Shown here piece by piece: positions 3,901-63,379 of a stretch of 64,000 nt of DNA. The DNA is from Trichosphaerium sp. ATCC 40318 (taxonomy: Eukaryota > Protista > Tubulinea), in assembly GCA_038496445.1 (NCBI GenBank), contig JALMLS010000577.1, forward strand, positions 372,001 through 436,000, given 5' to 3'. Every line of letters starts with the position of its first letter. Position 1 is the stretch's first letter. The position numbers and the translations under genes were made by a program. The notes under the pieces are model-generated. The model was given only the letters and a program-made list of their open reading frames with translations, made no database searches and had not been told where the DNA came from.

Positions 3901-4980
3901 CAGCTGCAGTAAAGTTACCTAATCATGGTGAAATTGTACGTCAACAAAGTAGTCTATTCCTTCGGCTGACTTAAATTTTAGAGATGTACTGTGCCAAGTT
4001 CTTCATACAGTACAACCACAATGACAGTTATAGGCAATGCCGAATCTGATCCTGTAGATTTTGCACTAACTGCAGACATCCTTACGCCTCCTCCTACAAC
4101 GCTTCCACCAACTACACTGCCTCCTACTACGCTTCCACCTACCACACTACCACCAACAACGTTACCTCCAACAACACTTCCGCCTACAACGCTTCCACCA
4201 ACTACTTTACCTCCTACTACGCTTCCACCTACCACACTACCACCAACTACGTTACCTCCAACAACACTTCCGCCTACAACACTTCCACCAACAACGCTGC
4301 CTCCAACTACGCTACCACCAACCACACTTCCACCAACTACGTTACCTCCAACAACACTTCCACCTACAACGCTTCCACCAACTACTTTACCTCCAACTAC
4401 ACTTCCTCCAACTACGCTTCCTCCTACAACATTACCACCAACAACGTTACCTCCAACAACACTTCCTCCAACAACACTTCCACCAACTACGTTACCTCCA
4501 ACAACACTTCCTCCAACAACACTTCCACCAACAACGCTGCCTCCAACTACGCTACCACCAACCACACTTCCACCAACTACGTTACCTCCAACTACACTTC
4601 CACCCACAACGCTGCCACCATCAACGCAACCACCTACAACCGTACCTCCAACAACCCCGCCTCCAATGACTGTTGCACCAACTACTATGCCTCCAACTCG
4701 AGGTCCTACAGCTCCTACAGCTCCAGTTATACCAACAACAGTGGCACCAACAACACTACCTCCAACTCAGCCTACAGCTCCAATTGTACCAACACAAGCA
4801 CCAACAGCTACACCTACGGCACCTATTGCGCCTACTACTGTGTCCCCAACTTCCGTGATATCTACAGAACCAGGACAACCTATTGCGCCTACTGATTCCC
4901 CGAAACAAACATCGGCTGGCGTGTCTTTACACAGCATTGTAACATGCTTTCTAGTATTGTTTGCAATTTTGCTATTGTAG
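918..4980 (+). CDS. Multi-exon surface glycoprotein with (PPTTL)35 mucin-like stalk and hydrophobic GPI-type C-terminus; 5' start uncertain
   Basis: In-frame GT-AG exons can be chained from about 1980 (FDCANVIHT..., PGNADWLQ..., SSVLQNDITVDFAFE...) into the last exon (ORF 3991-4980), which ends SLHSIVTCFLVLFAILLL. Confidence 0.7.
4090..4614 (+). repeat. Coding 15-bp tandem repeat, 35 units of PPTTL
   Basis: 525 bp = 35 x 15 bp. The protein unit is invariant while codons vary; a codon-variant block recurs at about 90 bp (4120 and 4210). Confidence 0.95.
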
Positions 4981-11031: not shown

Positions 11032-12290
11032 TTAGAGATCAAACAAGTCATGACCCGCTAAAAGTTTAGGTATCTCACTTTTTTGCACATAATCACCATT
11101 TGCCTTCCGTAATGGAAATGTCATTGCTTGGCGTTTTCCATTGATATAAAAATTCTCCACAAGCAATTGGCCATTGTCATACCATCTCTTGTACTGTCCT
11201 TCACGTATTCCATTGAAATAGTAGCTCTCTTCAAACAATTGACCATTGTTATGCCACTTCTTGTACTGCCCTTCAAGTAATCCACAGACATAATGTCTCT
11301 CTTCCCACAGCTGACCGCTACTGTACCATTTCCTTGCAACGCCTACATGTTTACCATTCTCGAATATATCATCTTCGTGCATTTGGCCGTCATAAGTACA
11401 CTCTCTTTCTAATCTTCCGTTGCGATGCCATTGCTTATAAGCTCCTTTAAGTTCATCGTCAACATAGTAAGATTGTGCCCTTAAGTGGCCATTATCCCAC
11501 CACTCTTTGTACTCTCCAATGCGTTTGCTATAGATTTTAAAAGAGCAGTTGGAGCTATAAATGAAATCAAAAGGCGTGATCAATCTACGTCTAGTATTAC
11601 TTTTGATCTCGGTTGTGAGAGGGGTGTAATAGCAAGATATTCTCATTTGGCCGTTTCTGTGCCACCACTTAAACGCTCCTTCTACAGAGCCTTTGGCGTA
11701 GTAGCACTGTATCGCCATCTGGCCTGTTTCAAACCATACATTGACTTCTCCTTCTTTAACACCGTTGACAAACTTAACTTTGTACATTAATTGTCCGTTG
11801 TCATGCCATTGTAGCCACACTCCATCTTCCTTACCATTGACAGTGCTACCTTTTAGGAACAGTTTGCCGTTGTCATACCAAGACTTGAACTCTCCATGAC
11901 GCTGACCATGATTCCAACATTCTTGGCATACAACCTGAGTACCTGCGGTTCTTATTTGGTGATCACTCACTTCTATTTCTGCTGATCCGTTGATGGTATC
12001 TCGTTCATAAACAGTTCTGTGTTTCAACCATTTTCCGTGCTTGTTCAAGTCATTATCGAATCTTGTGGTAGTTGCTGTAAACTTTGATAATAGAGACCAT
12101 TTTGAATACACTTCTGGATCAAGGTCGATAATATCAAGTTGTAATTCAAGTGGAAGATTGAGTAATCTGTTCATAGGCTCTTCTGTGTTATCGCTCTTTA
12201 TCTAATACGCTTGCATTAGAAATAAGCAACACCACAATGATATCGATTGTTTACCTTTTTCTCAGGTGATGGCTTCATTGGTACGTTCAT
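11032..12290 (-). CDS. F-box-like + MORN-variant (MORN_2/YwqK-like) repeat protein, copy A
   Basis: ORF 11032-12174 has LLNLPLELQLDII followed by many G.YK.W..NGQL repeats. A probable short first exon MNVPMKPSPEKK (12290-12255) precedes intron 12254-12202. Confidence 0.9.
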
Positions 12291-20656: not shown

Positions 20657-22648
20657 CTACAATTGTTTGTCTTGATACTTGACAAACTTGAAACGCTCAA
20701 GTGTTGTGAATCCCATTTCTTTCATTACTTTTCCCGTCATATCTTTGAATTCAACAAACATACGGTTCATCACTGATCCAAGCTCTTGTGATCTTGAGTC
20801 ATCAAATCCCGCTGATTTCAATACTCTTACCCAATCTACGTCATCACTTTGTACATTGTTTGATGTTGTAGGTAGTATCCCCAATGAACCCTAAATAAAA
20901 TAAACAAACAAGATATTTAAACTAGGTTACTACATTGCCACGATTGAATGAGTCATGGTTGTCTATCAATGATTCCTTTGAAACAAGTTCTTTTGCATCA
21001 AATCGCACTTTGTCATAGTCTATTGAAGAAGGCTTGATGTACCAAGATTGTCTTGATACAAGGTTATCGGCCTCAATTGAAGAAAAGTGTTTTGAAGAGT
21101 TGGGATTGTTCTAAAAGCTATTAATCACAGAATGCGATGTGCAAGTGAACAAGGTATTACATACATTATCTCCAACATCTTGCTTTAGTTTAATTCCCAT
21201 TTTATTTTGTATGACGTCACCTATGTTTTCTAGTATCTGAATATCCTGTTTGGTTTGTCCAAACTTCTCTTGAACAATATCTTTTGACGAATTATCAGGT
21301 GGCCCAAGGTTGCATGAGTTAAAGGATTTGTATGATATTATTTCATCGGCGTCAAATTGCACTTTGCTGTGGTCTATTGAAGAAGGCTTGTTATACCATG
21401 ATTGCCTTGATACAAGGTTATCAGCCTCAATTGGTGAAATGTGTTTAGAAGAATTTTCCTAAAGATAAATTATGATGTGAAAGTCAATGTGATGTTACGT
21501 ACGTTATCTTTAACATCTTGTTTGATGTTAACATCCTCTTCATTTAGTATGTGGTCACATGCTTTTTCTAGTATCTGAAGATCTTGTTCAATTTGTCCAA
21601 ACTTCTGAGGAGCATCTTTCCCAATGTCTTTTAATATTAATGTCTCTTCAGATGCGTTCACTTTGAACATAGACTTTCTGATTGGTTTTGGAGCATCACG
21701 TATCTTCTTTTTGGCTTCTTTGTTTGATACTGTTAATAGTAGAAAGTTAAGCATTACTTATTAACTTACCATAAGTATCTGGTTTCATCATGTAAGCTAG
21801 ACAAGAATCGAATATTTCTGAAACATTATACATATTTTTAACAGAACACTCAATGTAATCAAAGGCTCCGATATCATTTGTCAATGCCTATTGGATTATT
21901 ATTTTATTTCACTGTTGGCAAAGGTTCTGAAGGTGTACAACAGCAAAAAGTCTGGTAATTTCAGTATTGTGTGCTGTGTGGAGTTTTACGGAACAAAATC
22001 GTTTAGACTTTAATTAGCACGTGTTTTGTACCTTGGTTACGAGTGATTGGTGATTGATTTTTTGCTGCTAGTTTGTTAATAGTTTCTGGGTTGTCTATTT
22101 ATTCTAACTGAGCACCAACAAGCAAATACTTAGCATCTGGACAAAAATGTTTGCTTTCTGGATACCACTATATGACCATGTTACGGCAGAGGATACAAAA
22201 GTTAAAAATGTACCAGTGTTTTTACAGCCTCAAAACTTTTGTGGTTAATAACAGAGAAAACAATGATAAACACTTCAGCTCCCTTTAAGATATTACAAAA
22301 ACAATAAGGGAGTATTTGATAAATTGTACAGCGTATCCTAGTAGTCTTAATTGATCAAAGTCTTCTTGACCAGTCTACCAATATTATAATTAGTTTCTGG
22401 TGGTTTAATTACAAGTCTTACAGTATCCCAAAGGTGCAGACACACTTTTTCACCATCGAATAAAAACTCTTCTAAAATAATGCATCAGAAAAAAAGCACG
22501 TGCATTATGTAGGCTACGCACTATTGTAATTTTTAAATACTGTGATACTTCCAGGGTATTTATTGTTGATGTATGTGAAGAGTAGTTTAGCTTTTATTCC
22601 GCGCAAATTATCACCTATAACAACGACCTTTATATTGCGTGCTGCCAT
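20657..22648 (-). CDS. Degenerate Rho/Rac-like GTPase with duplicated C-terminal module and SAM-like tail
   Basis: MAARNIKVVVIGDNLRGIKAKLL, LHLWDT/GQEDFDQLRLLGY, WYPESKHFCPDAKYLLVG, YIECSV; tail VDWVRVLKSAGF...MKEMGFTTLERFKF. Confidence 0.8.
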
Positions 22649-26046: not shown

Positions 26047-26761
26047 CTCATTACAACATTTGCTGTTAACATCTTGACACTATAAACAGACTTCAATGCT
26101 CAAAGTTGCTATTTAGTTTTTTATTATTGTGTTACAACTTCGATCTCCATTCTAGACACATAAGCGCCTATATTGAGACCAATGTTAGACCGCCCTTTAA
26201 CATTCAAATGCACTCTTTCTAGGAATAGCGTTCGTAGTTCCCATAGAATCCTATATTTTGCGCAATGGTTCTCATGAAAGGATCAAAAGTTTGAAACATT
26301 TGACACGTACTTCGCAGTTGTATGCCAACTGTCAGGTACCAATCTTAGCGTTAATCTAAAAATATAGCTTGTGAAGCACATGCTTGAACCTACAGCGCAC
26401 GTGCTGCCAGAGGGTAATTTCGAAGGCTATTATTTTGGCTTGAAAATACCCATGATCCACGACGCACTAAGTTTGTGCTGTACTCCTACACGTTCTATTT
26501 TCTACACTGGCAAGCCTTTCGACCGTGTTTGTAGAAATCTAGGTTTAATGCTTATAGGCTCTTTCGTTTGTATTGGTTGAAAATAATTCACAACGTGTTG
26601 TTTTCAATCTACATTGATTGAAATAGAAGTATCATTTTTAGACTAAAACACAGCCAACGAAGTCATCACCTGAGAAAAAGGTAAACAATCGATATCATTG
26701 TGGTGTTGTTTATTTCTAATGAAAAGCGAATTAGATAAAGAGCTATAACACAGAAGAGCCG

Positions 26762-27859
26762 ATGAACAGATTACTCAATCTTCCACTTGAACTACAACTT
26801 GATATTATCGACCTTGATCCAGAAGTGTATTCAAAATGGTCTCTATTATCAAAGTTTACAGCAACTACCACAAGATTCGATAATGACTTGAACAAGCACG
26901 GAAAATGGTTGAAACACAGAACTGTTTATGAACGAGATACCATCAACGGATCAGCAGAAATAGAAGTGAGTGATCACCAAATAAGAACCACAGGTTCTCA
27001 GGTTGTATGCCAAGAATGTTGGAGTCACGGTCAGCTTCACGGAGAGTGCAAGTCTTGGTACGAAAGTGGCCAATTACTAGAGCAAGGGTATATAATCAAT
27101 GGCAAGCTTCATGGTGAATTCAAAGACTGGCATGTCAATGGTCAACTGAGACAACAGTGCAATTACACTCATGGTAAAAAAGATGGCATGCTGTCGGTAT
27201 GGTATTCTAGTGTTCCAAATCGATTAAGGCTACAGTGCCACTTTGTCAATGAGAGAGTGGACGGAGAATTCAAGAGGTGGCATAAAAATGGGCAACTGCA
27301 ACTCCTTTGCTATTACAATAAAAGAGAACCAGAAGTCCCAGGAGCTGCGTATTTCGATGATTGTGGAGTTTATTTCGCTCTTCTCAGCAAGAAGATCGGA
27401 GAGCACAAAGAGTGGTACGATAACGGTCAGATGCAAAGTCATTGTCACTACATCCATGGTGAACTAAATGGAGAAGTAAAGCGATGGTATAAAAACGGCC
27501 AACTTTGTGATCACATGCATTATGTGAATGGTGTACTGGAAGGTGATTGTAAACGTTGGTGTCAAAATGGCCAGATCTATGTACATCAACTATATGAAGA
27601 CGGAAAACTAGAAGGGAAACGCAAAGAGTGGTACAACAATGGTCAATTATGTGAAGAGAGCTACTACTTAAATGGAATACGTGAAGGACAGTACAAGAAA
27701 TGGCATGATAATGGCCAATTGCTTGTAGAAATCTTTTACATCAATGGAATAACGCCAAAGTCCTATATAATGTGGTGGGCAAATGGCGAAATGGTGAGTC
27801 CAGACGATATGAGTCTGCTTTATTCACGTGCTGTATATGGGTATATTACTCAATATTGA
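26762..27859 (+). CDS. F-box-like + MORN-variant repeat protein, copy B (short upstream exon at about 26642-26680)
   Basis: 365-aa ORF; first 76 aa identical to copy A, followed by MORN-variant repeats. Confidence 0.9.
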   Translation: MNRLLNLPLELQLDIIDLDPEVYSKWSLLSKFTATTTRFDNDLNKHGKWLKHRTVYERDTINGSAEIEVSDHQIRTTGSQVVCQECWSHGQLHGECKSWYESGQLLEQGYIINGKLHGEFKDWHVNGQLRQQCNYTHGKKDGMLSVWYSSVPNRLRLQCHFVNERVDGEFKRWHKNGQLQLLCYYNKREPEVPGAAYFDDCGVYFALLSKKIGEHKEWYDNGQMQSHCHYIHGELNGEVKRWYKNGQLCDHMHYVNGVLEGDCKRWCQNGQIYVHQLYEDGKLEGKRKEWYNNGQLCEESYYLNGIREGQYKKWHDNGQLLVEIFYINGITPKSYIMWWANGEMVSPDDMSLLYSRAVYGYITQY

Positions 27860-33957: not shown

Positions 33958-34246
33958 TCGCAAAGGTTTATTGTGGTTTGTGTGCTGCTTTTGCAGTTCT
34001 CTTTGGTTTTTTCAGTTGCGAACAATGGTTCTCTTACTCAAATTAATGTCTGTTGAGTATTGTTCAGTGAAAAAAAGGCAAAAATCTTTCACTGTAAAGT
34101 TTACGTTTTAGCTAATTGTTTTGTCAAAACACAATTACTTGGTTGATGGGTGTGGTAATATGTCCACCTATCCGGTGGGTTATTTGTAAGTACGCACTTA
34201 GATAACTTTGTCTAACAATGATTTATTATGTGATCATTCCATTCAG

Positions 34247-36719
34247 CTACAAGAGTAGAAACAAGAGAGCTACGATTGCTGACACTGCAGCTTTATCATA
34301 TGTAAAACCACTTGTTGTTTGCGAACTTGGTGCTACTGGGTCCTGAGTAGTCGGAGCTGTTGGCGTTGCTGTGGTGGGGGAAATTGGAGCTGTTGGTGGA
34401 GCTGTTGTCGGAGGCACAGAAGGAGCTATTGTTGTTGGTGCCGTTGGTCCTACTGGGGCAGTTGGTTCTGCCGTAGTCGGAGATACAGTCGTTGGTGCGA
34501 CAGTGGGTGGTGGAGTCGGTGGGAAGTCAAGTAAAGCAGTTCTAGCACGAGATTGTCAATAACCAAGTTGACAATAAAATAAAACGCACTTTTCCCATTC
34601 TTCCAACGTCCTTGAGTATACTCTGAAATCATCGATACATGTACCATTACCACTCAAACCTGTAGCAGTTTCTATAGCAAGATAATAAGTTGTAACCAAT
34701 ATAAAAAGAAACACGTGATACCACGTATTTGAACTATAGTTTGTCGAGCTTTAAAAGCTTTCTAGATATTGTTTAATTCATATACCTCCTATAGTAGGTC
34801 TTCTAGATTGAGTGGTACCAAGTACAGGTGCAGTAACTTCAAAGACTTTTGCTACTTGATCATTGACATACAAAGTAACTTGATTATTAGTGTTAACTAT
34901 TTCAAGCACTATCAGATTCCATGTCCTTGCAGGGGTGTCATCTGTCCAGGCAGTACCACTACAGCTACTACTCACACACATAATCAGCTTGGTTTCGTCA
35001 AAACCGGAGTAAAGCTCCAAACCAACGCTGTTACGATTGTCACGAAAGGTGAGTATTCTTTGACGTTGGTTTTTTTCCCTGCTTAGCCAAAAAGCGATTG
35101 TTAGCGGTGCTGTTTTAATAGCAGTGAAGATATCTTCATCAGCTTTATAGCTTCCATTAGTGTATAAGAACAGACACCATAACCCTTTCGGGTACACTGT
35201 AGCGTACTTAATTCTAGTTGCTTTGCTCCGTCCTCGAAACAAAGTGCACTGTTTGGGTTTCCAAATCGATCAGCTTCAAACTCTGGATCAGTACCAGCGT
35301 TTGTATACATTCCTCCAATCTCGCCTATACCATCAAATGTAATATGAGCCTCTATAATAATAACTTATTAACCCCTTATCAAGTACATTGTAAAAACGTC
35401 TATATAAAAGACGTCTTCTTACCAGGTTCAAGTCCTTGATTAAAAGGTGCAAAAGGAGGATAAGTAAAGTCAAGTTGTGCCGATCTAGAGCGTATTAGTA
35501 TTAGTAACTAAAACAAAAAGAGTCGAGAACCTTTCTGTCGAGTCAAGTGCACTATCCCAGAATTTCATGTCATCTATCGCGTAGCCATTTCCACTTCGGA
35601 TTGCTATCAAAAATAAGAGAATGAAACGTACAAAAAAAAAAAATACAGTCCCTTGGTTACAAAATTTTTTCAACAAAGTCACGTGATCGTGTGTTTGAAA
35701 AACAAGGTCCAATTTGAATACACAATCTAATAGATAACGTACCATCTCCACCAATAATAGGTAAGAAATTAGACGTTGCAGATAATACAGGGCCTCCAGT
35801 AGCTTCAAAATCTTTTGCAAGAACGTTGTTGACGTAGAACTCGATGTTTGTGTTTGCAGATTGAACGACAAACGTCAATAAAAACCATGTTCCTGCAGGT
35901 AAATTATCCAGCCATGCTCTGCCACTGCAAGTGTTTGCTGAACACATTATAATTCCATCTCCATTCGCCCCAACGTAAGCTTCAAAGCCACCATTTTGTG
36001 GGATATCGCGAGTATCGAATATAGGCTGTGAGCGTCTGTATCTACGGCGCATCCAGAAGGAAAGAGTCATAGGAGCGCTTTTAAATAGGCTTTGTATTGT
36101 TGTACTACCTAAAAACGCACGTAAACGCGATGACCAACGTAGAAGAGTCGTTTTTAAAGCGTGTAGCGCGTTTTTTGCGGAAGCCCAATTATGTAGAATT
36201 TTGTCAAAAAAAAGTCAAAAATTCGGCACACTATTTATCCTATATTATGCCATAGGAACTATTTAGCAAGCCCCCTTTTAGGGGGTTTGGGAGAGCAGAG
36301 CCTAGCGGCGACTGAGCGCCATAACCCAGTTGTCTCCCTTTGTGGCGAACAGTTCAATATCACTTCGACATTTCTTCGACTTTTTTTTTTTGACAAGTAT
36401 TTTACCCGTTTTAGTAAAATATCCTTTTCTGTACTGCGTTACGTACTAATGCGAACTGGCTTTGATTCCTCTCCGAAGTATATAGCGCTGTTGGCATTTC
36501 CAAAGCGGTCCTCAACAAAAGTTGGATCTTCCGTTCCTGCCGTTGTTAACAAATCTCCTTCAAAGTCACCATCAAACTTCAAGTGAGCGATTGGATCTAT
36601 TTAACCATCAATACTCTGTTTGTAGTTTTCTTTGATCCCCAACCAGTACCTTGGGCTGTAGCAATAGCAAGCAGTACAAAACATACCAATAAACTGGATT
36701 TTATACCCTTACTGTCCAT
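34247..36719 (-). CDS. Surface protein with two LamG-like (ConA/Laminin_G_3) domains, Pro/Thr stalk and GPI-type tail
   Basis: Signal MDSKGIKSSLLVCFVLLAIATA; two repeats starting EDRFGNANSAIYF and ADRFGNPNSALCF, with T(L/I)(S/A)FW, YVN and IDD motifs; ends VSAIVALLFLLL*. Confidence 0.8.
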
Positions 36720-46005: not shown

Positions 46006-46848
46006 ATGCAAGACAACTCAGCCGCTCAAAAACAAACCAACAAGTACGTGTTATTAGCCACACATCTCAAAACGCTAAAAAACCATCCTGTTAAACACTT
46101 TGCTAAAGACATTTACTAGTAATGTGATTACAAGCGAAAAATCACGTTTAGTGCTTACAAACATACCAGTTGAACTGAAATTCATGATCTTCAGTCTAGA
46201 TGATGAGGTTTATTTAAAATGGCCTCTCATCTCAAAGAACCTCGCTTATACATCAAGATTTGATGATTTGATGCGTAAGAGTGGCGTGTGGAGAAAATGG
46301 AAGCAAACTAAAGCCGAAACCAGTAGCAGAATTCTTACACGCACTTGGGGAAGAAAGAAACGTTATGGTAAACAGGAAAAAGAACCCAAAAAAACCAAAA
46401 AAGAAAAGTTTGACTTTTCTAGACGAACGCTCTTCTCTGTGTCTAACTTTCGAGCTGGAAAACTACACGGGAAGCAGATAGAGTATTCTGGTAATCAACT
46501 AGTAGCTGAAAGGTATTACAAATATGGCAAGTTGGACGGTAATTTTCGTTCTTATCGATTTGGTAAAGTCAATGTAACATGCCGTTACAAGTCTAACAAG
46601 CTCCATGGAGAGCATAAAGAATACTATGACAATGGAGATATATATCGTATTATACACTATAAAGTACGTGATTTAATCATAATAGACACCAAACGTTGTT
46701 ATTACATTTGTTTTTATTGTGCAATGTAATCTTACTTTGATTGTAGTTTGGAAAAAAGAATGGAGATTGCAAAATTTGGAATTTGGATGGGCAATTATTA
46801 GAGAACAGCGTATATTCTGATGGCATATGGATGAAAAATAAGAAGTAA
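46006..46848 (+). CDS. F-box-like + MORN-variant repeat protein, divergent copy C
   Basis: LTNIPVELKFMIFSLDDEVYLKWPLISK...TSRFDD parallels copies A/B; GKLHGK and LHGEHKEYYDNG repeats; one intron near the 3' end. Confidence 0.8.
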
Positions 46849-47145: not shown

Positions 47146-49862
47146 ATGTCCGGTACGTTTAACTTGCTGACATAACGTTTTAGATCAATATTTTGCATTC
47201 TAATACGTTATAGACCTTGGAAGAGGGCGCAGAGTCGTCAAAAGGAGAGTAAATGTGAAAAACACCACACGGTCACGGGATAGCGATAAACTAGTCACAT
47301 ACTTGTCCAATAGCGTTACTAAACACGATTTAAAGGCTTATGCCAAACAAAACCTACTAATAAAGGCTACGCTTTCTCCTCGTGCAATGGCTGAGGCTAT
47401 CGCTGATTCTGTACCTGCTGGTACGTTTAACTTAAATCGCTCAACTATTTTTTTTTTCTTTTTTGGGGAAGCGATTTGTTTCTTTTTGTTAACACCTTGA
47501 TAGTTGAATTACTCAAACAAAGAGTATCCGAATTGAAGAATCAAACAAGGGACGCTTCTATTTCAGGTCTAAAATTAAAACACGAGTATGTCTGGGCTTT
47601 ACTTACATTCTGCGGTACGCACATTAATTCACTCAAAAATTGTGATTGATTGTTTTTTTTGGAAAAACCTAAAAACAGTAAGTCCAGAAATTCAAACGTG
47701 AAGAAATTTTAGATTAAAAAAACCTTGTAGTTAAATTGTAATCAATATTCAAAGAGTTTACTTTAAGAATTGTCTTACTAAGTATAGAGCCAAGACTTGT
47801 AAAGCAACAAAAAGGGAAACAACAAAAAAAATCAAAAGCAGAAAGGAAGAGGCAGAGATCCGATTCTTCGAACAGCACAGTCAGATACCAGTCTAAAAAT
47901 AAACGTGCCAAACTGAAGACCAAACCTGAGACTTTGAAGCATAAAAACCAACAAGATGAGCGGAGGGCGAAGACTGGAGACAATCTTCACAGAATAGATA
48001 AAGAAAAATCTAAAGGCATGCTACTAGCAATGGAAGAATTGCAAGAGAATTATGCAGCACAGTTTAGAGAGATTAAAGCAATAGCTAACAAGAACAGTGA
48101 ATCAATTACACGTTACTTCAATACAGAAGGACGGAATAAGCTTATCAGAACCCTCATCAGGACTGGTATGTAATCATTTTCCTTTCCTATTTTATTAACA
48201 TTTCAGATCTATCAATGCTTTGGGATCTTTTACATGAAGAGAAGAGGTATAAGAACACTAAAATGTTATGGTTCTTTGCCTTCATGGTATATACAAAATT
48301 CGTGGGTATGGGTAATAGTGACAAATCAGTATATCCAATGGAAGGTGGTATAATACAGTACCCCAAAAACATAGTTAAAAAAACGCTGTTAAGGAGACTA
48401 AACAATTCTGGCATGAAAGACCTGAAGTGTTGGAATACCTACCAGACACACGGAGACTGTAAAAGACCTGATATATTGTTTACTGCCAATCTAGACACCA
48501 TTGACATACCTAAGTCAATGTACGTTTGTATTTTTTGGGAGGTTAAGAAAGGTAACAGTACTTTTTCAAAGAACGATAGGATGCAAATGGTGTACGTTCT
48601 TTGTTTTTTTCTGGACAACCCTTTCTGCTTTTTGAGCTGTTTCTAACTTTTTTTGAATAGTAGGTATTTACCTCAAGGGTTTCTAGCACAGCCTACCCAA
48701 ACTAGAATCACTGGTGTCTTGTCAAACGCAAAATACATCATGTTCTTTCAGATGAAGTATATTGACGCAACTGGCGAATATGAGGTAGAAGCATCTCCTG
48801 AGTATGAGTATGACTGCTCTGACTCTATGGGTGTTAAGCTAGTAAATCATCTCTTGAGCTGTACACCAAGGTATCTTGGATGGCATATACCAATGTTCGA
48901 ATACAACAAGAAAACTATGTACCTGAGTGTATTCTTGGAACCGGATCAAGTGCTTCTGTGTATAAGCTTAATACAAGAATCCCTGCAGCAGTCAAGGTGT
49001 TTAAAAGCGGATATGAAGAATGGGGGAAAAGGGAGCGCAAAATGTTGGATATTTTATCCGATAATGGTGTATCAGGGACTCCTAAAGTTGTATGTAAATG
49101 TTTTTTCTTGGTTTAAACTAAACTTGTTTTGAGGTCTTTGCGGGTGCAACCATAGATGATGAACAGTTCTATTTTGCCATGACACCTGTCGGTGAGCGAT
49201 TACACTCTAGAATCAATGGAGAAGGACCTTCGTTTTCTCAAGTTGTAGATACTCTACAGCACTCGCACAAACTTGGATATGTTCATAGGTACTTTTTTCT
49301 ATCATTATTTTCATTGACTAATTACCTAACTTATTTAAAAAAAAGGGATGTAACTACAACTAATATTGTAGTCGTACAAGATAATCTTTACTTGATTGAC
49401 TGGAGTACAGCTGTAGAGGTTGATTCTGTACAACTTTACAATGGTACTATTGTGAATGCTTGCGAAGAAGTCCTGCTACAGAGAGCTATTAACAATACTG
49501 TTCAAAATAAGCCTTGGCATGATCTTGAAGCCCTCGTTAGAGGGTACATATTATTTACAATGAAAGATTTTCAAATCGTCAATGACATAATTGATGCGCA
49601 AGATGAAATAGGATGGAGAGGTGTTATTAATCGAGCAATATTTGGGAAGTTTATGAGTAACTGGAGAGCTCTTTGTGCAATTAAGGCGTATTCTAAGCCT
49701 CTATCATATGCACGCAATTGTAATTACAGCGCACTAAAAATGTGGTTTGATGATCACATGGTAGTTCTTAAGGTTGATATTGAGGAATACTCATTTCCCC
49801 AAACCTACCTAGAAAAGCTTGAAAAACAAGAACACGAACACAAAAAGAGAATCTTCAAGTGA
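47146..49862 (+). CDS. Crinkler-like PD-(D/E)xK REase + protein kinase (one apparent frameshift at about 48912)
   Basis: KRPDILFT...IFWEVKK; LGTGSSASVYK, AVKVFK, VHR/DVTTTNI (split by an intron), LIDWSTA, DLEAL. Confidence 0.75.
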
Positions 49863-54986: not shown

Positions 54987-55899
54987 ATGGCTGCAGCTTC
55001 AGAAAGCAATTCTGACGAGGAACTTCGTTCTCAAGGTCTAAGTATTACTGAGCGTGTCAAACACTCAGTACATCATAAAGTAAAAAAGATATTAAAACAA
55101 AGAAGACGAAATGCTTTAATTGTTATCATTGGCGGCTTAGTACTTGCTCTGGCATTCTCTGTTGTTGGTATGGTTCGTATAGAACATTTTACTCATGAAT
55201 TGGAGCACGTGGCGAATATATCGGTCACGTTCGAGGAGAAAATCTTTGTAGAAGAAGCAGAAGAGCTTATTTACTCTTCGCAATTGTTTTACATTCTACT
55301 ACTCGCTGAAACGGCGATTGTGTTCTTGGATGTTCTTACTGAAGCTATAGTATGGATTTCTCCATTCAAATGTTTAGGTACTTGATCACGTGATCCACAC
55401 AAAACCAAAAAAAAAATTCCAAAAAAAAACAACGCGTTTTCTCGTGTCTCTTGCTTAACTCTTCTCTTTAGGCGTGTTGTTCTTTTTCATTAACTTGGCC
55501 ATTGATACCATACCTCCTCTTATAGAATACGTATCTATATTCTTTCTCTTTGATTACATCAACAGTATTCGTATAATATCGCCTTCATTTGAACAGACAA
55601 GCAAAAATATCTTAAGTTTTTTGCAAATCGAAAACCTTGTTTACATCATTTTATGCATTCTCTACTTTTCCAACTATAAAAAGTTCCTACAAGACGAAGG
55701 CACTAATAGAGGGTCTTATTTTATGCAATTAATTTCGCCTGGATTTAAAAAACAAGTAAAAGAAGAAGCAGAAGAGCTAGAGAAGCATGAGAAGCTTGTT
55801 TATAATTTAAGTACTTTTGAAAACATGCTTTTCTTTTGGCCTTTGGATAAATGGGAGAACTATGTAAAGAAAAGTGGCAAGAAGCCATCAGAATTTTGA
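54987..55899 (+). CDS. Multi-pass membrane protein, unknown function
   Basis: ORFs 54987-55385 and 55474-55899 joined by one intron; about 4 hydrophobic segments. Confidence 0.7.
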
Positions 55900-57473: not shown

Positions 57474-58915
57474 AGTTTTTTGACCTATTAAAACACAGTA
57501 AGGTATTTGTATCTCATTAGTTATTCCTTGCTGCCGTACAAGCTTTACTATTAACTTGTTTGCGTCTGTTTTGATGCCTTTGGTTGACTTTATGGTTTTA
57601 CGTTTTCGCACGTGATTTGAAACGTTATTTTTTTAGTTGAACTTGGAGGAAACATAGTTAGGCGAGAAAATACGTCATTATAAGTGCTTATAAGGTATGT
57701 ATGCAGTATACATCCTCGAGCTAAAACGAGAAAAATCGCGCTTTGTTGAGCTTATTCGTGTCACGTAGAGAACCAGTGAGACGCGTGAGAAACTATTTAT
57801 ACGGTTAATACCTTTAACAAAACACTTACGCTTAGTTTACTCGCGCAACACGTTAACTATACCAACATGGAGTATTCTATAAGGGCTATATGCTCCGAAG
57901 GCTAGTATGGAAAGGGTTTTAGTAATGTGCCGGATGGCACCACACTGAGATGTTCTCAACGTCTTACTTACAATTTACGTTACGCGTGTGTGATAAAACA
58001 AATACCATGGTATTGGATACGGTCACTAGTGTTCAGTTAATGATGTTAGCATCACGTGATGATATGATAAATTATTTTTAGTCATAAGTTCTGTACTTGT
58101 CATTAAACTAAGATCTAGTATTGTTAACCGTGTCAAGTAAAAATGCTTGCATTCGTACAACATAATAATACCGGCAAAACTTTTGTTCACTAGCAAAAAA
58201 TCGTACACAAAGTACCGGAAGAACGACCAGAAACAACAAACATCATCCAACATGTCACAACACATCTACTCTTTTTTGCTTGCGCTAAGAAAAGACGCCG
58301 CCCTCACAAAGTATAGAATACTTGAGCAAATACAAATTGTTTACAAACAAGTATTCTCACGCAGTAAACCAGAACCTAAAGTACGATATAACCTGTGTTC
58401 TGTATCTAAAGAAACCTCTAGGAACATAAGACAACAGCAGACCAAAGCCATCTACTAAGCCTTCCTATGGAGCTACAACTCGAGATTATTGATTCCGATC
58501 TGGAAGTGTATGTTAAGTGGGCACTACTATCGAAACACACTGCAAGGACGACAAGATTTGATAACGAGATGAAGAAACATGGAACTTGGCTTAAAATACA
58601 AACAACAAGTTCTCAAAGTCAGATAGTGGCACAAGAGTCCTGGGAACATGGGTCACGAAACGGCGATGCCAAGAAGTGGCATAATAATGGTGTGTTGAAG
58701 GAGTTGTATCACTTTATCAATGGTAACATTCATGGAGAGCATAAGAAGTGGTATAGTAACGGCCAAATAAAAAAACAATGTACTTTTGTCAATAGTATAA
58801 GAGAGGGTGAGTGCAGTACATGGTATGATAATGGACAATTACAAGAATTTTGTTGTTATATCAACGGAAGAATACACGGAGAGCATAAGGAGTGGTTTAC
58901 AAATGGTCAATTATC

Positions 58916-60492
58916 TTTTTTTTTTTAGAATAAGAGGCAGCGCGCTAGCGCCTACTTTATTACATAGGAATTTTTACATTGGATAACGACTTACAAATGT
59001 GTGTGTACAACAGGAAAAGCCAGAGTAACTAGGAGATTCGATCAAGCCAGCACAAAAGAACAGAGAAGCCAAATATATGGAACCCATGAGATAATAAAAC
59101 AGATCACTGAAAGCTATACCTGGTTAAGTTTTTTACGCTCTTCGTACCAACGAGCCCGTAGATTTTGGATGTTAGAGAGAGAGGTATCAACACGCTCACC
59201 AGCTACCACTTTTTTCCGCCAGTGTGCTTCCAATTCAGTGCGAAAAGCCGACTCCAAGTCGGGTTTGAGAATAGAACCAGAAGTTGAGACAGGTACCTTG
59301 GGAGCAGGTGAAGAAGAAGGAGAAGGCCTAACCGGTGGTGGGTGCGTACTTGGGCGCTGGTTAGAGATGGTAGGTCTAGGCAACACACGTGGTTTTTTGT
59401 TAGCTACTCGTTGGGGACCTACAAAGCTTCGCTTGCCCAACTTGAACTCATCGAGGCCAGACTCGTCCAAGAACTCAATACTTCTTGCCTTTTTTTGAGC
59501 TGCCAGATAAACTGCTTTGCCTTTGAAAATCTTAAAAACCAGATAATTTTTGTGACGCTTAATAACTTGGAACGTCTCCAACCCTTCTATCACCTTGGAG
59601 CACCAAAAAACGCACCCATTAGAAGCCAGTTTGTGTTTTTCTGTGAGCCAGCGACGGAAGAAAAGAAGCTTGACATCCATAACCTTACAGAACTCGGTGC
59701 ACAATAATAACATGTCATCGCCTGACTCAGTATTGCGGAAGCCCGAAATCACAATCTTGGTACAGTTGTGGGCAATAGTGTACATGTTGACGCCTCGGTT
59801 TTGAAATGAGCGTCTGATGTTTTGGATGCGATCATTGTCCAGCTTACTCATATACACAGCTACAGTTAGTCCAAATTCATACTCCCTGGCAGTCACGACT
59901 GTATTATCCTTGTTTTTGCAGATGTTTTTGACGATAATATCACTAGCCTCCTCGAACGCCTTTTGAACATCCACTGGAGCTTTGGACTCACCACTACCCT
60001 TAGTAATGAGGTCTGAATAGATCTCCACCTTAACGATCCAAAGAATAAGACCCTCTGTACCTTCTTGCTCTAGTCTCGCAGACTGTGCACTCTCGATCGT
60101 TTGGACCACATTAATAAGTGTGTCCTTAACAACACTAACAGTTTGTTGTTGTGGCAAACTATCGGCTAAATCTGCCATAGCACTGTCAATGGTGGAGTTG
60201 TTGGCCATGTTCCTGGTTTGGTGAATAGAGTGAGCAACACGTATACACTAGAATGACAGAATTTTCAATGAACATCGGAAAATTAGATTTAGCGAACATG
60301 AAAGTTAAGACAAATGGCCTACAGGCCCTAGCGACCTGCGGCAAACTTACTACAAACTCTTTGTGACACTTTGGGCTCAAAAGGCCCAAAGTGTTACCAA
60401 GACATACAGGGATACCCTAGGGCGTAAAATATGAGAAAGAAATAAAATAAGTTGAAGAGAAGCTGCAATCACCGGGCAGTTAAGCCGGCCTC
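58916..60492 (-). mobile_element. 1577-bp poly(A)-tailed retroposed element with 18-bp TSD
   Basis: tacaaatggtcaattatc is duplicated at 58898-58915 and 60493-60510; T11 at 58916-58926; minus-strand AATAAA about 30 nt before the A-tail. Confidence 0.93.
59114..60208 (-). CDS. Intact intronless 364-aa ORF of the retroposed element (possibly ORF1p/RRM-like)
   Basis: Single long ORF inside the element. Segment CTKIVISGFRNTESGDDMLLLCTEF resembles an RRM beta1-alpha1; basic/Pro-rich C-terminus. No RT or endonuclease motifs seen. Confidence 0.75.
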   Translation of the reverse strand: MANNSTIDSAMADLADSLPQQQTVSVVKDTLINVVQTIESAQSARLEQEGTEGLILWIVKVEIYSDLITKGSGESKAPVDVQKAFEEASDIIVKNICKNKDNTVVTAREYEFGLTVAVYMSKLDNDRIQNIRRSFQNRGVNMYTIAHNCTKIVISGFRNTESGDDMLLLCTEFCKVMDVKLLFFRRWLTEKHKLASNGCVFWCSKVIEGLETFQVIKRHKNYLVFKIFKGKAVYLAAQKKARSIEFLDESGLDEFKLGKRSFVGPQRVANKKPRVLPRPTISNQRPSTHPPPVRPSPSSSPAPKVPVSTSGSILKPDLESAFRTELEAHWRKKVVAGERVDTSLSNIQNLRARWYEERKKLNQV

Positions 60493-61058
60493 TACAAATG
60501 GTCAATTATCAGAACAGTATAGCTTCGTAGATGGGAAACAAGACGGAGAATATAAGATATTCTTTAGTGATGGAGAACTTTTTGAACAGGGTTATTACTT
60601 CAGTGGAAAAAGGAACAAGAAGTCTTACCCTCTATTTTTCAGCATGTTTCAATAGTATCAAGACAGAATAAATAATCTTTTCTGTAACAACCATCAGTAC
60701 ACAATTGCAAAGAAACGTTTCTACCTTTAAAGTGTTAAAGCTTTACCATAAGATACGTTGGCACTGCGGCAACCCGTTGTGCACAACCGATTCGTACTTT
60801 ATACTTTGTGCGAATATAGGAAGGAAATCAAACACTGTGAAAACACAAAAAACTACACACTTTTTTTCCCAGATAAGACTCGTTTTCTGCAAGAAGAAAT
60901 GAGCTCTGTATTTCCCAAAAAAGAAGACATAGAGTTTAGTTTTATGTTTTGTACACAAACAAGAATTGAAGTGTTCGCAGATATCACGACTGTTAAATTT
61001 GTTTCATTGAACGCTTAACACAAAAAAGATGTCCTTCGCGTACTTGAAAGCATCACAC

Positions 61059-63290
61059 ATGAATTGCTACATATTTATTCTCCTTGCCATCTTTTTTGTA
61101 TTTGCGAAAGCTCAGGCTCCAAACGCGTTTATCAACTCCGTTGACAACGGGTTCGAAATACGTTTTATAGCAGACGATAACACTGTTGTACATGGCACGT
61201 GGGGTTTATTGAGATTGCCTGTTATTTAATTCTTTATTGTAGAATGCTTAGACAGCATCCCCTCTGGAACGGTAATAAGATCAATGGCCTACTTAGCTTC
61301 AAAAAACTTGCTATTTATTGGGCTGAGTCTAGAATCACCAACTGCTCCAACGTTTATAATTATAGATCCTTATACATGCCAAGTCCAGGTACTTAAACAC
61401 GGAGGTCATACACTAGGCAGGCTGCTCAAATTTTGCTCGCCTTTCCAAAAACCGCTGGCAACTTGCTTTTGTGTGTCAATCTATGTGTTGCAGTTTGCTA
61501 TAATTAATTCAGTTTGTATCCAGACGAAATGCACTACGTTTGGTTTCAGTATTGCTGTTCATCCCACAACTGAGATACTTTATGGACTCAGTTGGTCAGA
61601 TAGCTCTGAAACTTTTCTTTCAACAATAGATTATTCAAATTGTAATATGACTCTTAAGCTTGCTTGTGAGGTCAATGTACGAATAGCAGAAGCAAGTACG
61701 AACAATTTTGTAGTTCAATTCATCTGTTTAACACACGTTCAAGTGTCAGCTAAAAATAGCTCACCACGTGCCAGTACTTTTCGCGTTTGAGAAACCTAGC
61801 TAATGTATCTTTTTTGTCTAGTGGCATTTAGTGGTACAACACTAGTAGCAGCTGGTTATAAAAGCATTGGAGTATTTCCCTCGTTTGATACAGACAATTG
61901 TACTGCATCAGCAACAGCTGCTTTTAACAGTACATATCCCACTAAATGTACGTTGGTAAAAATATTCTAAAAGTTCAAACTTTAGCCTATGTTTTTTTCC
62001 TCTCATAATGTATTTCTAGCGATGGCTTTCATTTCAGAAGATGAAGTAGTTGTAACAACACTATTAAGATGGTTTAAAATTAACATTAAAACACTTGAAG
62101 TATCAGATTTTGCTTCAAGTATACCATATGGAAGTATACTCTCATCAATGTTCTACGATGATATACCAAGAACTGTTGCCCCTATACCACCTACTCCTGA
62201 AGCCCCAGTAGCACCCACTAATATCCCTACACCAGCGCCTGACGGAGGCATTATAGACGTATTCATCATGGCAAAACGAGATGACGCACCGGGGTTTGAA
62301 TACAGACTGATTTCAAATACAAGTGACGTAGTAGGTTGTAAGTATTGTTGCTATTCTTTGATCAATTTTAATTCTTATATCAGCTTGTTCTACACCAAGT
62401 CTAGTTAGCGCTCCATTTGCAATAGAATACAGTAGTGCTATAGATAAGGTTATATACATCAATAATAATAGCAGGATTTTCACAGTTGATCCGTACACAT
62501 GTGAAATAGTATGTTGGTTTTGTTTCTTACACTGCTTCTATTTATAACCGAGTAACCCTTATACAAAGGAAAAAGTTTGTATTATGAGCCTTGGAGCCTT
62601 TGGTTTGATGGTAGATAAAGAAAGTGGTAGGATTTTTGGTGAGGCTAGCGGACCATACGTACTAGAGATTAATATGGAAAATTGTTTATTGTCTTTTCAT
62701 TGTGGTAATCAAACAACATCTGCAGCTAGTGGTACGTATTTTTGCCTTGTTTGAAGCCAGTTTTTATTATATTTTAACATCTCTCAGGCATGCTCATTAA
62801 TGATGTTCTCTACATTGGTGGTGCTAATAACCTGATAAGCAAAGCACCAAACTTTTTATCTGGATCATGTGTTCCAGACAGAGCAGCAACAATACCAGAT
62901 TGTAGAATGGCAGGTATGACAACTGTAAATACAGCTTCGAACTTAAACTGTTTTGCAACAAAAGGGTTGACAGCAATATCGAGTGATGTTCTTGTTGGTT
63001 CTTGTAGAAATGGTGACTTAGTTCATATCAATGCTACAACGCTTTCTTTTTTCCAAAGGGAGTTCGATGTAAGTGTTGGTGAGGGGATCTCTGCGTTCAA
63101 ATACAACCCTCCTACAGAAGCGCCAACAACTGCCGCCCCAACTGCATCTCCTTCTACCGAAGCGCCAGTACCTACGCAAGTCCCATCAATTTCACCAACT
63201 GCAACAGTTGCGCCAACTTCAAGTTCAAGAACGGTTGTGTTACGCTTCGGTTTGATTACACTTGGTTTATTCTTCTTGTTCCACTTATAA
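61059..63290 (+). CDS. Secreted/GPI-type surface protein with two beta-propeller-like halves and Pro/Thr linkers
   Basis: Signal MNCYIFILLAIFFVFAKA; the (I/V)DPYTC motif occurs twice; PT stalks; ends FGLITLGLFFLFHL*. Confidence 0.7.
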
Positions 63291-63379
63291 TAAAAAAAGT
63301 AGTTCTTGTTTGGTTTCGAGCTTCTTTTTTCACAGTTGCAACATCTATTGAGTATCACGCATCGCTAATAAATCGTCCT

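What the first reader, a model, noticed from the sequence alone, without database searches (positions are those of the whole stretch)
58898..60510. Young RT-less retroposon carrying a single intact 364-aa ORF, inserted into an F-box-MORN gene
Seen: a perfect 18-bp TSD (tacaaatggtcaattatc), an 11-nt A-tail with upstream AATAAA, a 284-nt 5' UTR, one intact intronless ORF, and a host gene whose frame is restored exactly on removal. Established: a TSD plus poly(A) is the signature of target-primed reverse transcription. The element encodes no RT or endonuclease, so it was mobilised in trans. The target begins GATAATTG, unlike the mammalian L1 TT/AAAA site. Inference: it is either an ORF1-only non-autonomous LINE derivative (HAL1-like) or a retro-captured viral or cellular mRNA (analogous to bornavirus N insertions). 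I do not recognise the protein.
Basis: partly seen in the sequence, partly recalled or inferred. Interest (0 to 1): 0.85.

Follow-up and report, generated by a model that had tools for sequence, protein, structure and literature searches.

The report
Young enzyme-less retroposon with orphan protein
A 1.6-kb RNA-derived insertion with a poly(A) tail and an exact 18-base target duplication cuts short a MORN-repeat gene of a microbial eukaryote, and its single orphan gene likely encodes the RNA-packaging protein of a LINE, so it is probably a new example of a known kind of 'half-LINE' that would borrow another element's copying enzyme.

Summary
An exact 18-bp target-site duplication flanks a 1,577-nt minus-strand insert with an 11-nt A tail, AATAAA, a 284-nt leader and one intact 364-aa ORF without RT or endonuclease motifs. 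New evidence: one 263-nt cDNA contig from a public run spans the site without the insert and with one TSD copy, letter-perfect. None of 19 possible cut points is a canonical splice pair, so it most likely reads the empty allele of a young, polymorphic insertion. The protein is an orphan: 0 hits among 1.84 billion representatives. Folding failed (pLDDT 39-45). Only sub-threshold language-model neighbours (RRM_1, DUF4780, PRE_C2HC) point to a LINE ORF1-type RNA-binding protein; it has no CCHC knuckle. Best reading: an ORF1-only non-autonomous LINE derivative mobilised in trans (0.58), as HAL1, HeT-A, Ag-Sponge and Dictyostelium TRE5-A.2. Copy number and partner LINE could not be tested: no genome is held. 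'F-box' is not confirmed by Pfam. The scan has noted ORF1-only retroposons on other DNA in several genomes. Verdict: real, probably a new member of a known kind.

The parts
58898..58915 (.). Target-site duplication, copy next to the A tail (18 bp)
   Evidence: exact repeat of 60493-60510, not extendable; single copy in the empty form
58916..58926 (-). Poly(A) tail, 11 nt, uninterrupted
   Evidence: sequence
58956..58961 (-). AATAAA, ending 29 nt before the tail; the only AATAAA/ATTAAA in the insert
   Evidence: function as poly(A) signal inferred
58927..59113 (-). 3' untranslated region, U-rich, no ORF2 remnant seen; a small GC-rich hairpin before the tail is not significant
   Evidence: hairpin z -0.36, whole 3' UTR z +0.96
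59114..60208 (-). Intact intronless ORF, 364 aa (P0001), pI 9.45, orphan; likely LINE ORF1-type RNA-binding protein
   Evidence: no homologue; weak leads
60062..60208 (-). Residues 1-49: acidic, predicted helical N-terminal segment (possible oligomerisation helix; inferred)
   Evidence: low-confidence model helices 6-17, 20-49; pI 4.05, best heptad frame 0.54 hydrophobic at a/d
59459..60061 (-). Residues 50-250: alternating strand/helix core, read by eye as two RRM-like (beta-alpha-beta-beta-alpha-beta) units; not proven
   Evidence: Atlas neighbours 0.76-0.87; hydrophobic moments fit 8 of 11 hand-picked strand or helix segments; alpha/beta sandwich hits at Z 4.3-5.0 only; the two units do not align to each other
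59117..59458 (-). Residues 251-364: basic proline-rich linker (pI 12, 14 Pro) and two predicted C-terminal helices; no CCHC zinc knuckle
60209..60492 (-). 5' leader, 284 nt, starts with G; three upstream ATGs; closed in the ORF's frame; presumed internal promoter (untested)
   Evidence: no Rfam, tRNA or credible HDV-like ribozyme match
60358..60402 (-). Stable hairpin in the leader, 19-nt arms, 89% complementary
   Evidence: z -4.62, 0 of 200 shuffles as stable (window chosen after seeing the repeat)
60493..60510 (.). Target-site duplication, copy at the element's 5' end (18 bp)
58467..58915 (+). Host MORN-repeat gene, part before the insert; with the insert its frame stops at 58926-58928 (true start may lie upstream; frame open from 58422)
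   Evidence: MORN_2 E 1.2e-16
60511..60655 (+). Host MORN-repeat gene, last repeat and C-terminus, cut off by the insert
   Evidence: MORN_2 E 0.01; joined to the upstream part in a cDNA contig

Best explanation
This is a recent insertion made from a polyadenylated RNA, and it is likely an ORF1-only, non-autonomous LINE derivative whose protein would coat its own RNA while reverse transcriptase and endonuclease would be borrowed from an autonomous LINE elsewhere in the genome. Shown: TSD, A tail, one intact ORF, no RT or endonuclease motif, disruption of a MORN gene, and a cDNA of the same gene without the insert. From established knowledge: TSD plus A tail is the footprint of target-primed reverse transcription, so a LINE enzyme acted in trans. 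Inferred: (1) the 284-nt leader carries an internal Pol II promoter and AATAAA directs the tail; (2) the basic 364-aa protein, with a helical N-terminus and two RRM-like units, binds in cis the RNA that encodes it, which is why the ORF stays intact; (3) the partner ORF2 protein engages the 3' end or the tail, nicks 5'-TTATC/AGAA-3' and primes on the tail, with the second nick 18 bp away; (4) the element is a multi-copy family, not a one-off. The working model is TRE5-A.2 of Dictyostelium, where ORF1 in cis strongly raises mobilisation by trans ORF2.
For: TSD, tail, intact ORF. No YxDD, GDFN, SDH or PD-(D/E)xK motif in six frames (motifs recalled). Empty form in run X2: one 263-nt contig, depth 6.3, 118 + 145 nt on the two sides, 0 other letters, 0 gaps; the runs are spliced cDNA (13 of 15 joints shown read GT-AG on the minus strand); 0 of 19 cut positions are canonical splice pairs. 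Size and layout (leader, ORF, short 3' UTR, tail; no ORF2 remnant) match ORF1-present bipartite LINEs (PMC5786205 passage; PMC3159450 passages). For residues 48-262 the named Atlas neighbours include RRM_1 (18% of members, 0.85), DUF4780 (93%, 0.85), PRE_C2HC (77%, 0.83), zf-CCHC (12%, 0.79) and ZCCHC3 RNA-binding domains (0.76); PRE_C2HC is in the gag-like ORF1 of the LINE Helena (PMC3087515 passage); that DUF4780 and ZCCHC3 relate to LINE ORF1 is recalled. Basic protein, pI 9.45. An intronless ORF with no relative anywhere suits a fast-evolving ORF1 better than a conserved cellular RRM protein (inference). GC 43.6% against 37.6% for the window.
Against: No significant match to any ORF1 family: Pfam whole and in five pieces, PDB sequences. 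All Atlas scores are under 0.9, shared features 106-145 of 256 (true family members mostly share 170 or more), recognition 2162 is under the 2300 mark, and the tool itself notes that only 1 of the ten best named hits shares a family or clan with the best, which usually means that family is wrong; DUF4732 (0.82) is among the neighbours with no ORF1 link known to me. No CCHC knuckle, which type I ORF1s have. Both models are unreliable (pLDDT 44.5 and 39.4) and no RRM or ORF1p structure is listed in the fold searches. Only one copy is known: none in the 64-kb window, no genome to search. No partner LINE was seen. The empty form rests on one contig from one sample.
Confidence: 0.58

Rival explanations
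1. A one-off processed retrocopy of a fast-evolving cellular mRNA, inserted in trans by a LINE that accepts any poly(A) RNA. The ORF is intact only because the event is recent.
For: Same TSD and tail footprint; AATAAA 29 nt before the tail as in an mRNA; intronless ORF in a genome with many 42-338-nt introns; relaxed L1-type recognition mobilises cytosolic mRNA (PMC3747384 passages); only one copy known.
Against: No cellular relative among 1.84 billion representatives or in the 90% clusters searched, whereas a neighbouring host gene finds a 75% identical relative. A 284-nt leader with three upstream ATGs and a strong hairpin is long for a gene-dense protist (inference). The Atlas neighbours lean to retroelement-type families (weak).
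Confidence: 0.17
2. A prematurely polyadenylated transcript of an autonomous two-ORF LINE: the RNA was cut at the AATAAA after ORF1 and inserted once. The protein is ORF1p, but there is no separate half-LINE family.
For: All ORF1 leads above apply equally; a canonical AATAAA follows the ORF; only one copy known.
Against: The 187 nt after the stop hold no endonuclease start and are U-rich like a terminal UTR; longest ATG-led frame there is 37 codons. No longer or fused relative found.
Confidence: 0.13
3. A viral mRNA (RNA virus nucleocapsid or giant-virus gene) captured by LINE machinery, as for endogenous bornavirus-like N elements (analogy recalled).
For: Orphan, basic, about 40 kDa, intronless, GC above the window mean.
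Against: 0 of 20 candidate stretches confirmed in 2.9 million viral contigs; no PHROG; no BFVD match at E<=0.001, though from a poor model; the core has clear strand segments, unlike the mainly helical bornavirus N (recalled).
Confidence: 0.06
4. The insert is fixed, not polymorphic, and the empty cDNA is a reverse-transcriptase template switch across the 18-nt repeat; or the filled form is a misassembly.
For: The empty form is one cDNA contig at depth 6.3 whose joint lies exactly in an 18-nt direct repeat; such switches are a known artefact (PMC2923612, PMC8240250, search listing and start of abstract only). No read evidence for the filled junctions was available.
Against: A switch needs filled transcripts, and no laid contig carries either filled junction (contigs drop rare forms). 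A misassembly would not build a TSD, a tail, AATAAA and an intact ORF in register. Even if the cDNA is an artefact, the element remains a retroposed insertion.
Confidence: 0.06

Closest known systems
TRE5-A.2 of Dictyostelium discoideum (PMC3159450, passages)
   Same: Protist non-LTR element with ORF1 but without a working ORF2, mobilised in trans; ORF1 acts with strong cis preference, which explains an intact ORF.
   Different: TRE5-A.2 has a known autonomous parent with shared modules and targets about 50 bp upstream of tRNA genes; this insert sits in a coding exon, no tRNA gene lies in the window, no parent is known and no sequence relationship was found.
HAL1 (half-L1) of mammals (PMC5753468, passages; Bao and Jurka 2010 not held)
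   Same: Encodes one protein only, poly(A) tail and TSD, depends on a LINE enzyme.
   Different: HAL1 encodes recognisable L1 ORF1p (Transposase_22); this protein matches neither that family nor solved L1 ORF1p sequences, so it is not filed as HAL1.
HeT-A (Jockey clade) and Ag-Sponge (CR1 clade), ORF1-present bipartite non-autonomous LINEs (PMC5786205, passage)
   Same: Same design: 5' part with ORF1, 3' end, no RT.
   Different: HeT-A is telomeric (recalled); Jockey-lineage ORF1s carry CCHC knuckles after the RRMs, absent here; clade of the partner unknown.
Processed retrocopies made by L1-type LINEs (PMC3747384, passages)
   Same: TSD, tail, intronless ORF.
   Different: No parent gene or cellular relative found; parent could not be sought in this genome.

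Membership tests
Retroposed (TPRT) insertion | Target-site duplication of about 7-20 bp | tested here: met
   18 of 18 bp, not extendable; single copy in the empty form
Retroposed (TPRT) insertion | 3' poly(A) or simple-repeat tail abutting the TSD; no LTRs or terminal inverted repeats | tested here: met
   A11 next to the TSD; no terminal direct or inverted repeats listed
Retroposed (TPRT) insertion | Empty site exists | tested here: met
   one cDNA contig, 263 nt, 0 differences; not canonical splicing; template-switch caveat
ORF1-only non-autonomous LINE (HAL1, HeT-A, Ag-Sponge, TRE5-A.2 type) | No RT or endonuclease encoded | tested here: met
   one long sense ORF, no motif in six frames, no Pfam hit
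ORF1-only non-autonomous LINE (HAL1, HeT-A, Ag-Sponge, TRE5-A.2 type) | Single ORF homologous to a LINE ORF1p | tested here: inconclusive
   sub-threshold Atlas leads only; no sequence hit; models unreliable
ORF1-only non-autonomous LINE (HAL1, HeT-A, Ag-Sponge, TRE5-A.2 type) | Multiple copies with shared ends and their own TSDs | not testable with these tools
   no genome held; no second copy in 64 kb
ORF1-only non-autonomous LINE (HAL1, HeT-A, Ag-Sponge, TRE5-A.2 type) | 5' and 3' ends shared with an autonomous LINE of the same genome | not testable with these tools
   no genome held; a 20-base 3' pattern gave 2 chance matches in GC-rich metagenome contigs
HAL1 proper (L1 clade) | L1 ORF1p: coiled coil, RRM, CTD (PF02994) | tested here: not met
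   no PF02994 hit for the whole protein at E<=1 or for pieces at E<=10; no L1 ORF1p chain at E<=10
Type I LINE ORF1p (PMC4120745) | CCHC zinc knuckle directly after the RRM(s) | tested here: not met
   no CX2CX4HX4C and no CxxC in the protein
Type I LINE ORF1p (PMC4120745) | One or two RRM domains | tested here: inconclusive
SINE (Pol III, small-RNA head) | Head from tRNA, 5S or 7SL RNA; no protein | tested here: not met
   no Rfam match near a gathering score, no tRNA, and a 364-aa ORF is present
Processed retrocopy | Parent gene with introns elsewhere in the genome | not testable with these tools
   no genome held
Retro-captured viral mRNA | Homology to a viral protein | tested here: inconclusive
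   no sequence hit; fold search run on a pLDDT 44.5 model

The most novel reading that the evidence does not exclude
An active family of protein-coding retroposons whose gene is not derived from any LINE ORF1 but from an unrelated cellular or viral RNA-binding protein, kept intact because it gives its own mRNA a cis advantage in capturing a LINE reverse transcriptase: a parasite of LINEs with an independently recruited packaging protein, possibly with a new knuckle-free fold.
Probability: 0.1. Interest if true: 0.75.

Novelty: new member of a known kind. Interest (0 to 1): 0.36.

Why it matters
If the best reading is right, it extends ORF1-only non-autonomous LINEs to another microbial eukaryote, shows that target-primed retrotransposition is active there now (intact ORF, perfect TSD, an empty allele still transcribed), and supplies an ORF1-like protein with no relative in 1.84 billion representatives and no zinc knuckle. 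That is useful for transposon specialists and for annotating this genome, but it does not overturn anything: the design is described in mammals, insects and Dictyostelium. It would matter more if the protein proved unrelated to ORF1p while the element proved multi-copy.

Tried and rejected
Homologue searches, all blank: 0 of 1,703 candidates of 200-637 aa at E<=0.001; 0 of 353 candidates of 638-2,000 aa at E<=10 for residues 48-262 (shorter proteins not searched with that tool); 0 of 1.84 billion representatives; 0 of 20, 0 of 171 and 0 of 124 pattern hits confirmed in viral, metagenome and prokaryote contigs; Pfam, PHROGs, NCBIfam only chance-level rows (DUF4590 E 0.007-0.065, BimA E 0.034 on the proline linker); PDB sequences best E 0.27; no look-alike in the scan's own notes by protein or DNA. 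Folding: two single-sequence AlphaFold2 models, pLDDT 44.5 and 39.4; fold searches best Z 6.0 and 6.7, none at 8, no Foldseek hit at E<=0.001; no RRM or ORF1p entry listed, which with such models says nothing. RNA features: Rfam 5 rows, all far under gathering scores; own HDV-like ribozyme descriptor (recalled) gave 2 AT-rich hits needing bases outside the element, rejected; 3' hairpin not better than shuffles; whole leader z -2.17. A possible 103-nt intron in the leader (60350-60248) that would remove two upstream ATGs scores 6.4 and 6.8, at the low end of 13 host introns scored in-sample; 5 donors in the element score 6.4 or more, so chance level. Splicing as the cause of the empty cDNA: 0 of 19 cut positions canonical. 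The 165-codon antisense ORF 59001-59498 is treated as a shadow frame (Pfam E 0.018 under cut-off). Runs: no RNA holder listed on record, 2 runs of one sample, each with 0.06 of the words; their contigs do not cover the insert, which is no evidence on expression or copy number. Host clade: not resolved; the RasGEF exon's best relative is a 75% identical unnamed MMETSP transcript. Literature: 9 searches; none names this element, but an orphan sequence cannot be searched by words. PMC5203782 had no passage on ORF1-only elements. No supplements were read.
Full report
Setting. The window is from a microbial eukaryote with short GT-AG introns (13 of 13 joints checked, 42-338 nt), a RasGEF exon, a peptidase and four MORN-repeat genes. 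Its clade was not resolved. No whole genome is held, which leaves copy number and the partner element open.

Observation. The 18-bp repeat at 58898-58915 and 60493-60510 is exact and cannot be extended. An order-0 estimate expects 0.027 such repeats within 10 kb in the whole window, and a scan for A tail plus TSD on both strands gave 3 candidates, of which only this has a TSD of 14 or more. Between the copies lie 1,577 nt on the minus strand: a 284-nt leader, a 364-aa ORF (60208-59114), 187 nt of U-rich 3' UTR with the only AATAAA ending 29 nt before an 11-nt A tail. None of 5,000 shuffles gives so long an open frame; no RT, APE or restriction-like motif occurs in six frames; the leader is closed in the ORF's frame, so the ORF is not the tail of a longer one (motifs recalled). 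With the insert the host frame stops after 153 aa; without it and with one TSD copy it runs 197 aa. Because 18 is a multiple of 3, frame alone does not test the TSD, but only the one-copy form keeps the 24-residue MORN spacing. Pfam gives MORN_2 on both sides and no F-box.

Empty allele. Two public runs of one sample hold a small share of the region. Laid on a neighbouring 20 kb they skip introns (13 of 15 joints shown are GT-AG on the minus strand; 23 more not shown) and carry what I recognise from memory as a template-switch adapter, so they are cDNA. One contig of run X2, 263 nt at depth 6.3, matches 58780-58897 and 60493-60637 with no difference and skips exactly 1,595 nt, the insert plus one TSD copy. 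None of the 19 equivalent cut positions is GT-AG, GC-AG or AT-AC on either strand. The simplest reading is a transcript of the uninterrupted allele, so the insertion is polymorphic and young. A reverse-transcriptase switch across the 18-nt repeat is a known artefact (PMC2923612, PMC8240250; listing and start of abstract only) and is not excluded, but no laid contig carries a filled junction. The lack of cover over the insert is not used as evidence on expression.

The protein. It is an orphan in every sequence collection tried. It is basic (pI 9.45), with an acidic helical N-terminus, an alpha/beta core (residues 50-250), a basic proline-rich linker and two C-terminal helices; it has no CCHC knuckle. 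By eye the core reads as two beta-alpha-beta-beta-alpha-beta units; hydrophobic moments fit 8 of 11 segments that I picked by hand as strand or helix, with the last strands of the second unit not fitting, and the two units do not align to each other. The ESM Atlas gave DUF4780 at 0.84 for the whole protein and, for residues 48-262, clusters with RRM_1, DUF4780, PRE_C2HC, DUF4732, zf-CCHC and ZCCHC3 RNA-binding domains at 0.76-0.85. PRE_C2HC occurs in the gag-like ORF1 of the LINE Helena (PMC3087515, passages), and RRMs followed by CCHC define type I ORF1 (PMC4120745, passages); the link of DUF4780 and ZCCHC3 to ORF1 is recalled. These are leads only: every score is under 0.9, shared features are under 170, recognition is under the 2300 mark, and the tool flags that the named hits do not agree on one family or clan. 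Single-sequence folding failed (pLDDT 44.5 and 39.4). In the second model, residues about 113-205 drew alpha/beta sandwich chains at Z 4.3-5.0 (S6 permutant, a GcvR repressor, EpsL/PulL/XcpY; that these are ferredoxin-like, the fold class of RRMs, is recalled) and a designed protein at Z 6.7, rmsd 3.5 over 88 residues, all below what the tool calls meaningful. So 'ORF1p-like RNA-binding protein' is the most likely identity, not a result.

Mechanism. Shown: footprint, intact single ORF, no enzyme, empty form. Established: TSD plus tail means target-primed reverse transcription by a LINE protein. The predicted first nick is 5'-TTATC/AGAA-3', a pyrimidine/purine step loosely like the L1 site, and 18 bp is within the range of APE-type LINEs (both recalled). 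Inferred: an internal promoter in the leader, which holds a strong hairpin (z -4.62) but no Rfam, tRNA or credible ribozyme match; cis binding of the protein to its RNA; trans supply of ORF2. No significant 3' stem-loop was found, so I cannot say whether the partner uses stringent 3' recognition or the tail alone (terms from PMC3747384, passages). The experimental precedent is Dictyostelium TRE5-A: the non-autonomous TRE5-A.2 has the structure AB-ORF1-BC and is mobilised in trans; in tagged elements, deleting ORF1 cut activity to 0.5% and a stop codon to 12% (PMC3159450, passages). That gives a reason for an enzyme-less element to keep one ORF intact.

Rivals. A one-off retrocopy of a cellular orphan gene (0.17), a prematurely polyadenylated LINE transcript (0.13), a viral mRNA (0.06) and a fixed insert or artefact (0.06) remain; the first two can be separated from the best reading (0.58) only with the genome.

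Comparison with what is known. It works like ORF1-present non-autonomous LINEs: HAL1 (PMC5753468, passages), HeT-A, HAL1 and Ag-Sponge (PMC5786205, passage) and TRE5-A.2. It is not filed as HAL1 (no L1 ORF1p match) nor as a type I ORF1 element (no knuckle). Membership of the broad kind is met for footprint and lack of enzyme, inconclusive for ORF1 homology and untestable for copy number and partner. Bao and Jurka 2010 was not held; no supplements were read. The scan's own notes list ORF1-only retroposons in mushrooms, octopus, a ray, comb jellies, mussels and another protist; these are unchecked AI notes, used as leads, and none resembles this sequence.

Verdict. Real, young and most likely polymorphic; probably a new member of a known kind, with an orphan protein as its one unusual feature. 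Interest 0.36. The boldest reading left open, a retroposon family that recruited a non-ORF1 protein, gets probability 0.10 and interest 0.75.

Noticed in passing
window 11032-12201 (-), 26735-27859 (+), 46079-46729 (+), 58467-60655 (+): Four MORN_2-repeat genes in 64 kb, at least two as long single open frames in an otherwise intron-rich genome; several share an N-terminal F-box-like motif that Pfam does not call. The cDNA runs hold more paralogues, so the family is expanded.
   Followed up: partly
window 47742-49862 (+): A run of ORFs with a PD-(D/E)xK-like stretch followed by a kinase-like stretch, by eye resembling the nuclease-plus-kinase architecture of Crinkler/RHS-type mobile genes (recalled); Pfam gives nothing above cut-off.
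   Followed up: partly
window 60248-60350 (-): Possible 103-nt GT-AG intron in the element's leader that would remove two of three upstream ATGs; scores are at chance level.
   Followed up: partly
window 59001-59498 (+): 165-codon ORF antisense to the 3' half of the element's ORF; treated as a shadow frame.
   Followed up: partly
window 3982-4980 (+): Long near-perfect PPTTL pentapeptide tandem repeat in a mucin-like, probably surface-anchored protein; similar Pro/Thr tails end genes near 62000-63300.
   Followed up: no
window 34210-36600 (-): cDNA contigs differ from the window by about 5-8% with small indels over a two-domain Laminin_G_3 gene, while other genes match at 99-100%: a close paralogue or a second, related organism in the runs.
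   Followed up: no
window 54987-55899 (+): Two adjacent membrane-protein-like ORFs share a 16-nt exact repeat (55250, 55761); no Pfam family.
   Followed up: no
window 21018-21580: Tandem duplication with a period of about 340-354 nt (exact 16-mers at 21018/21372, 21052/21406, 21226/21564).
   Followed up: no
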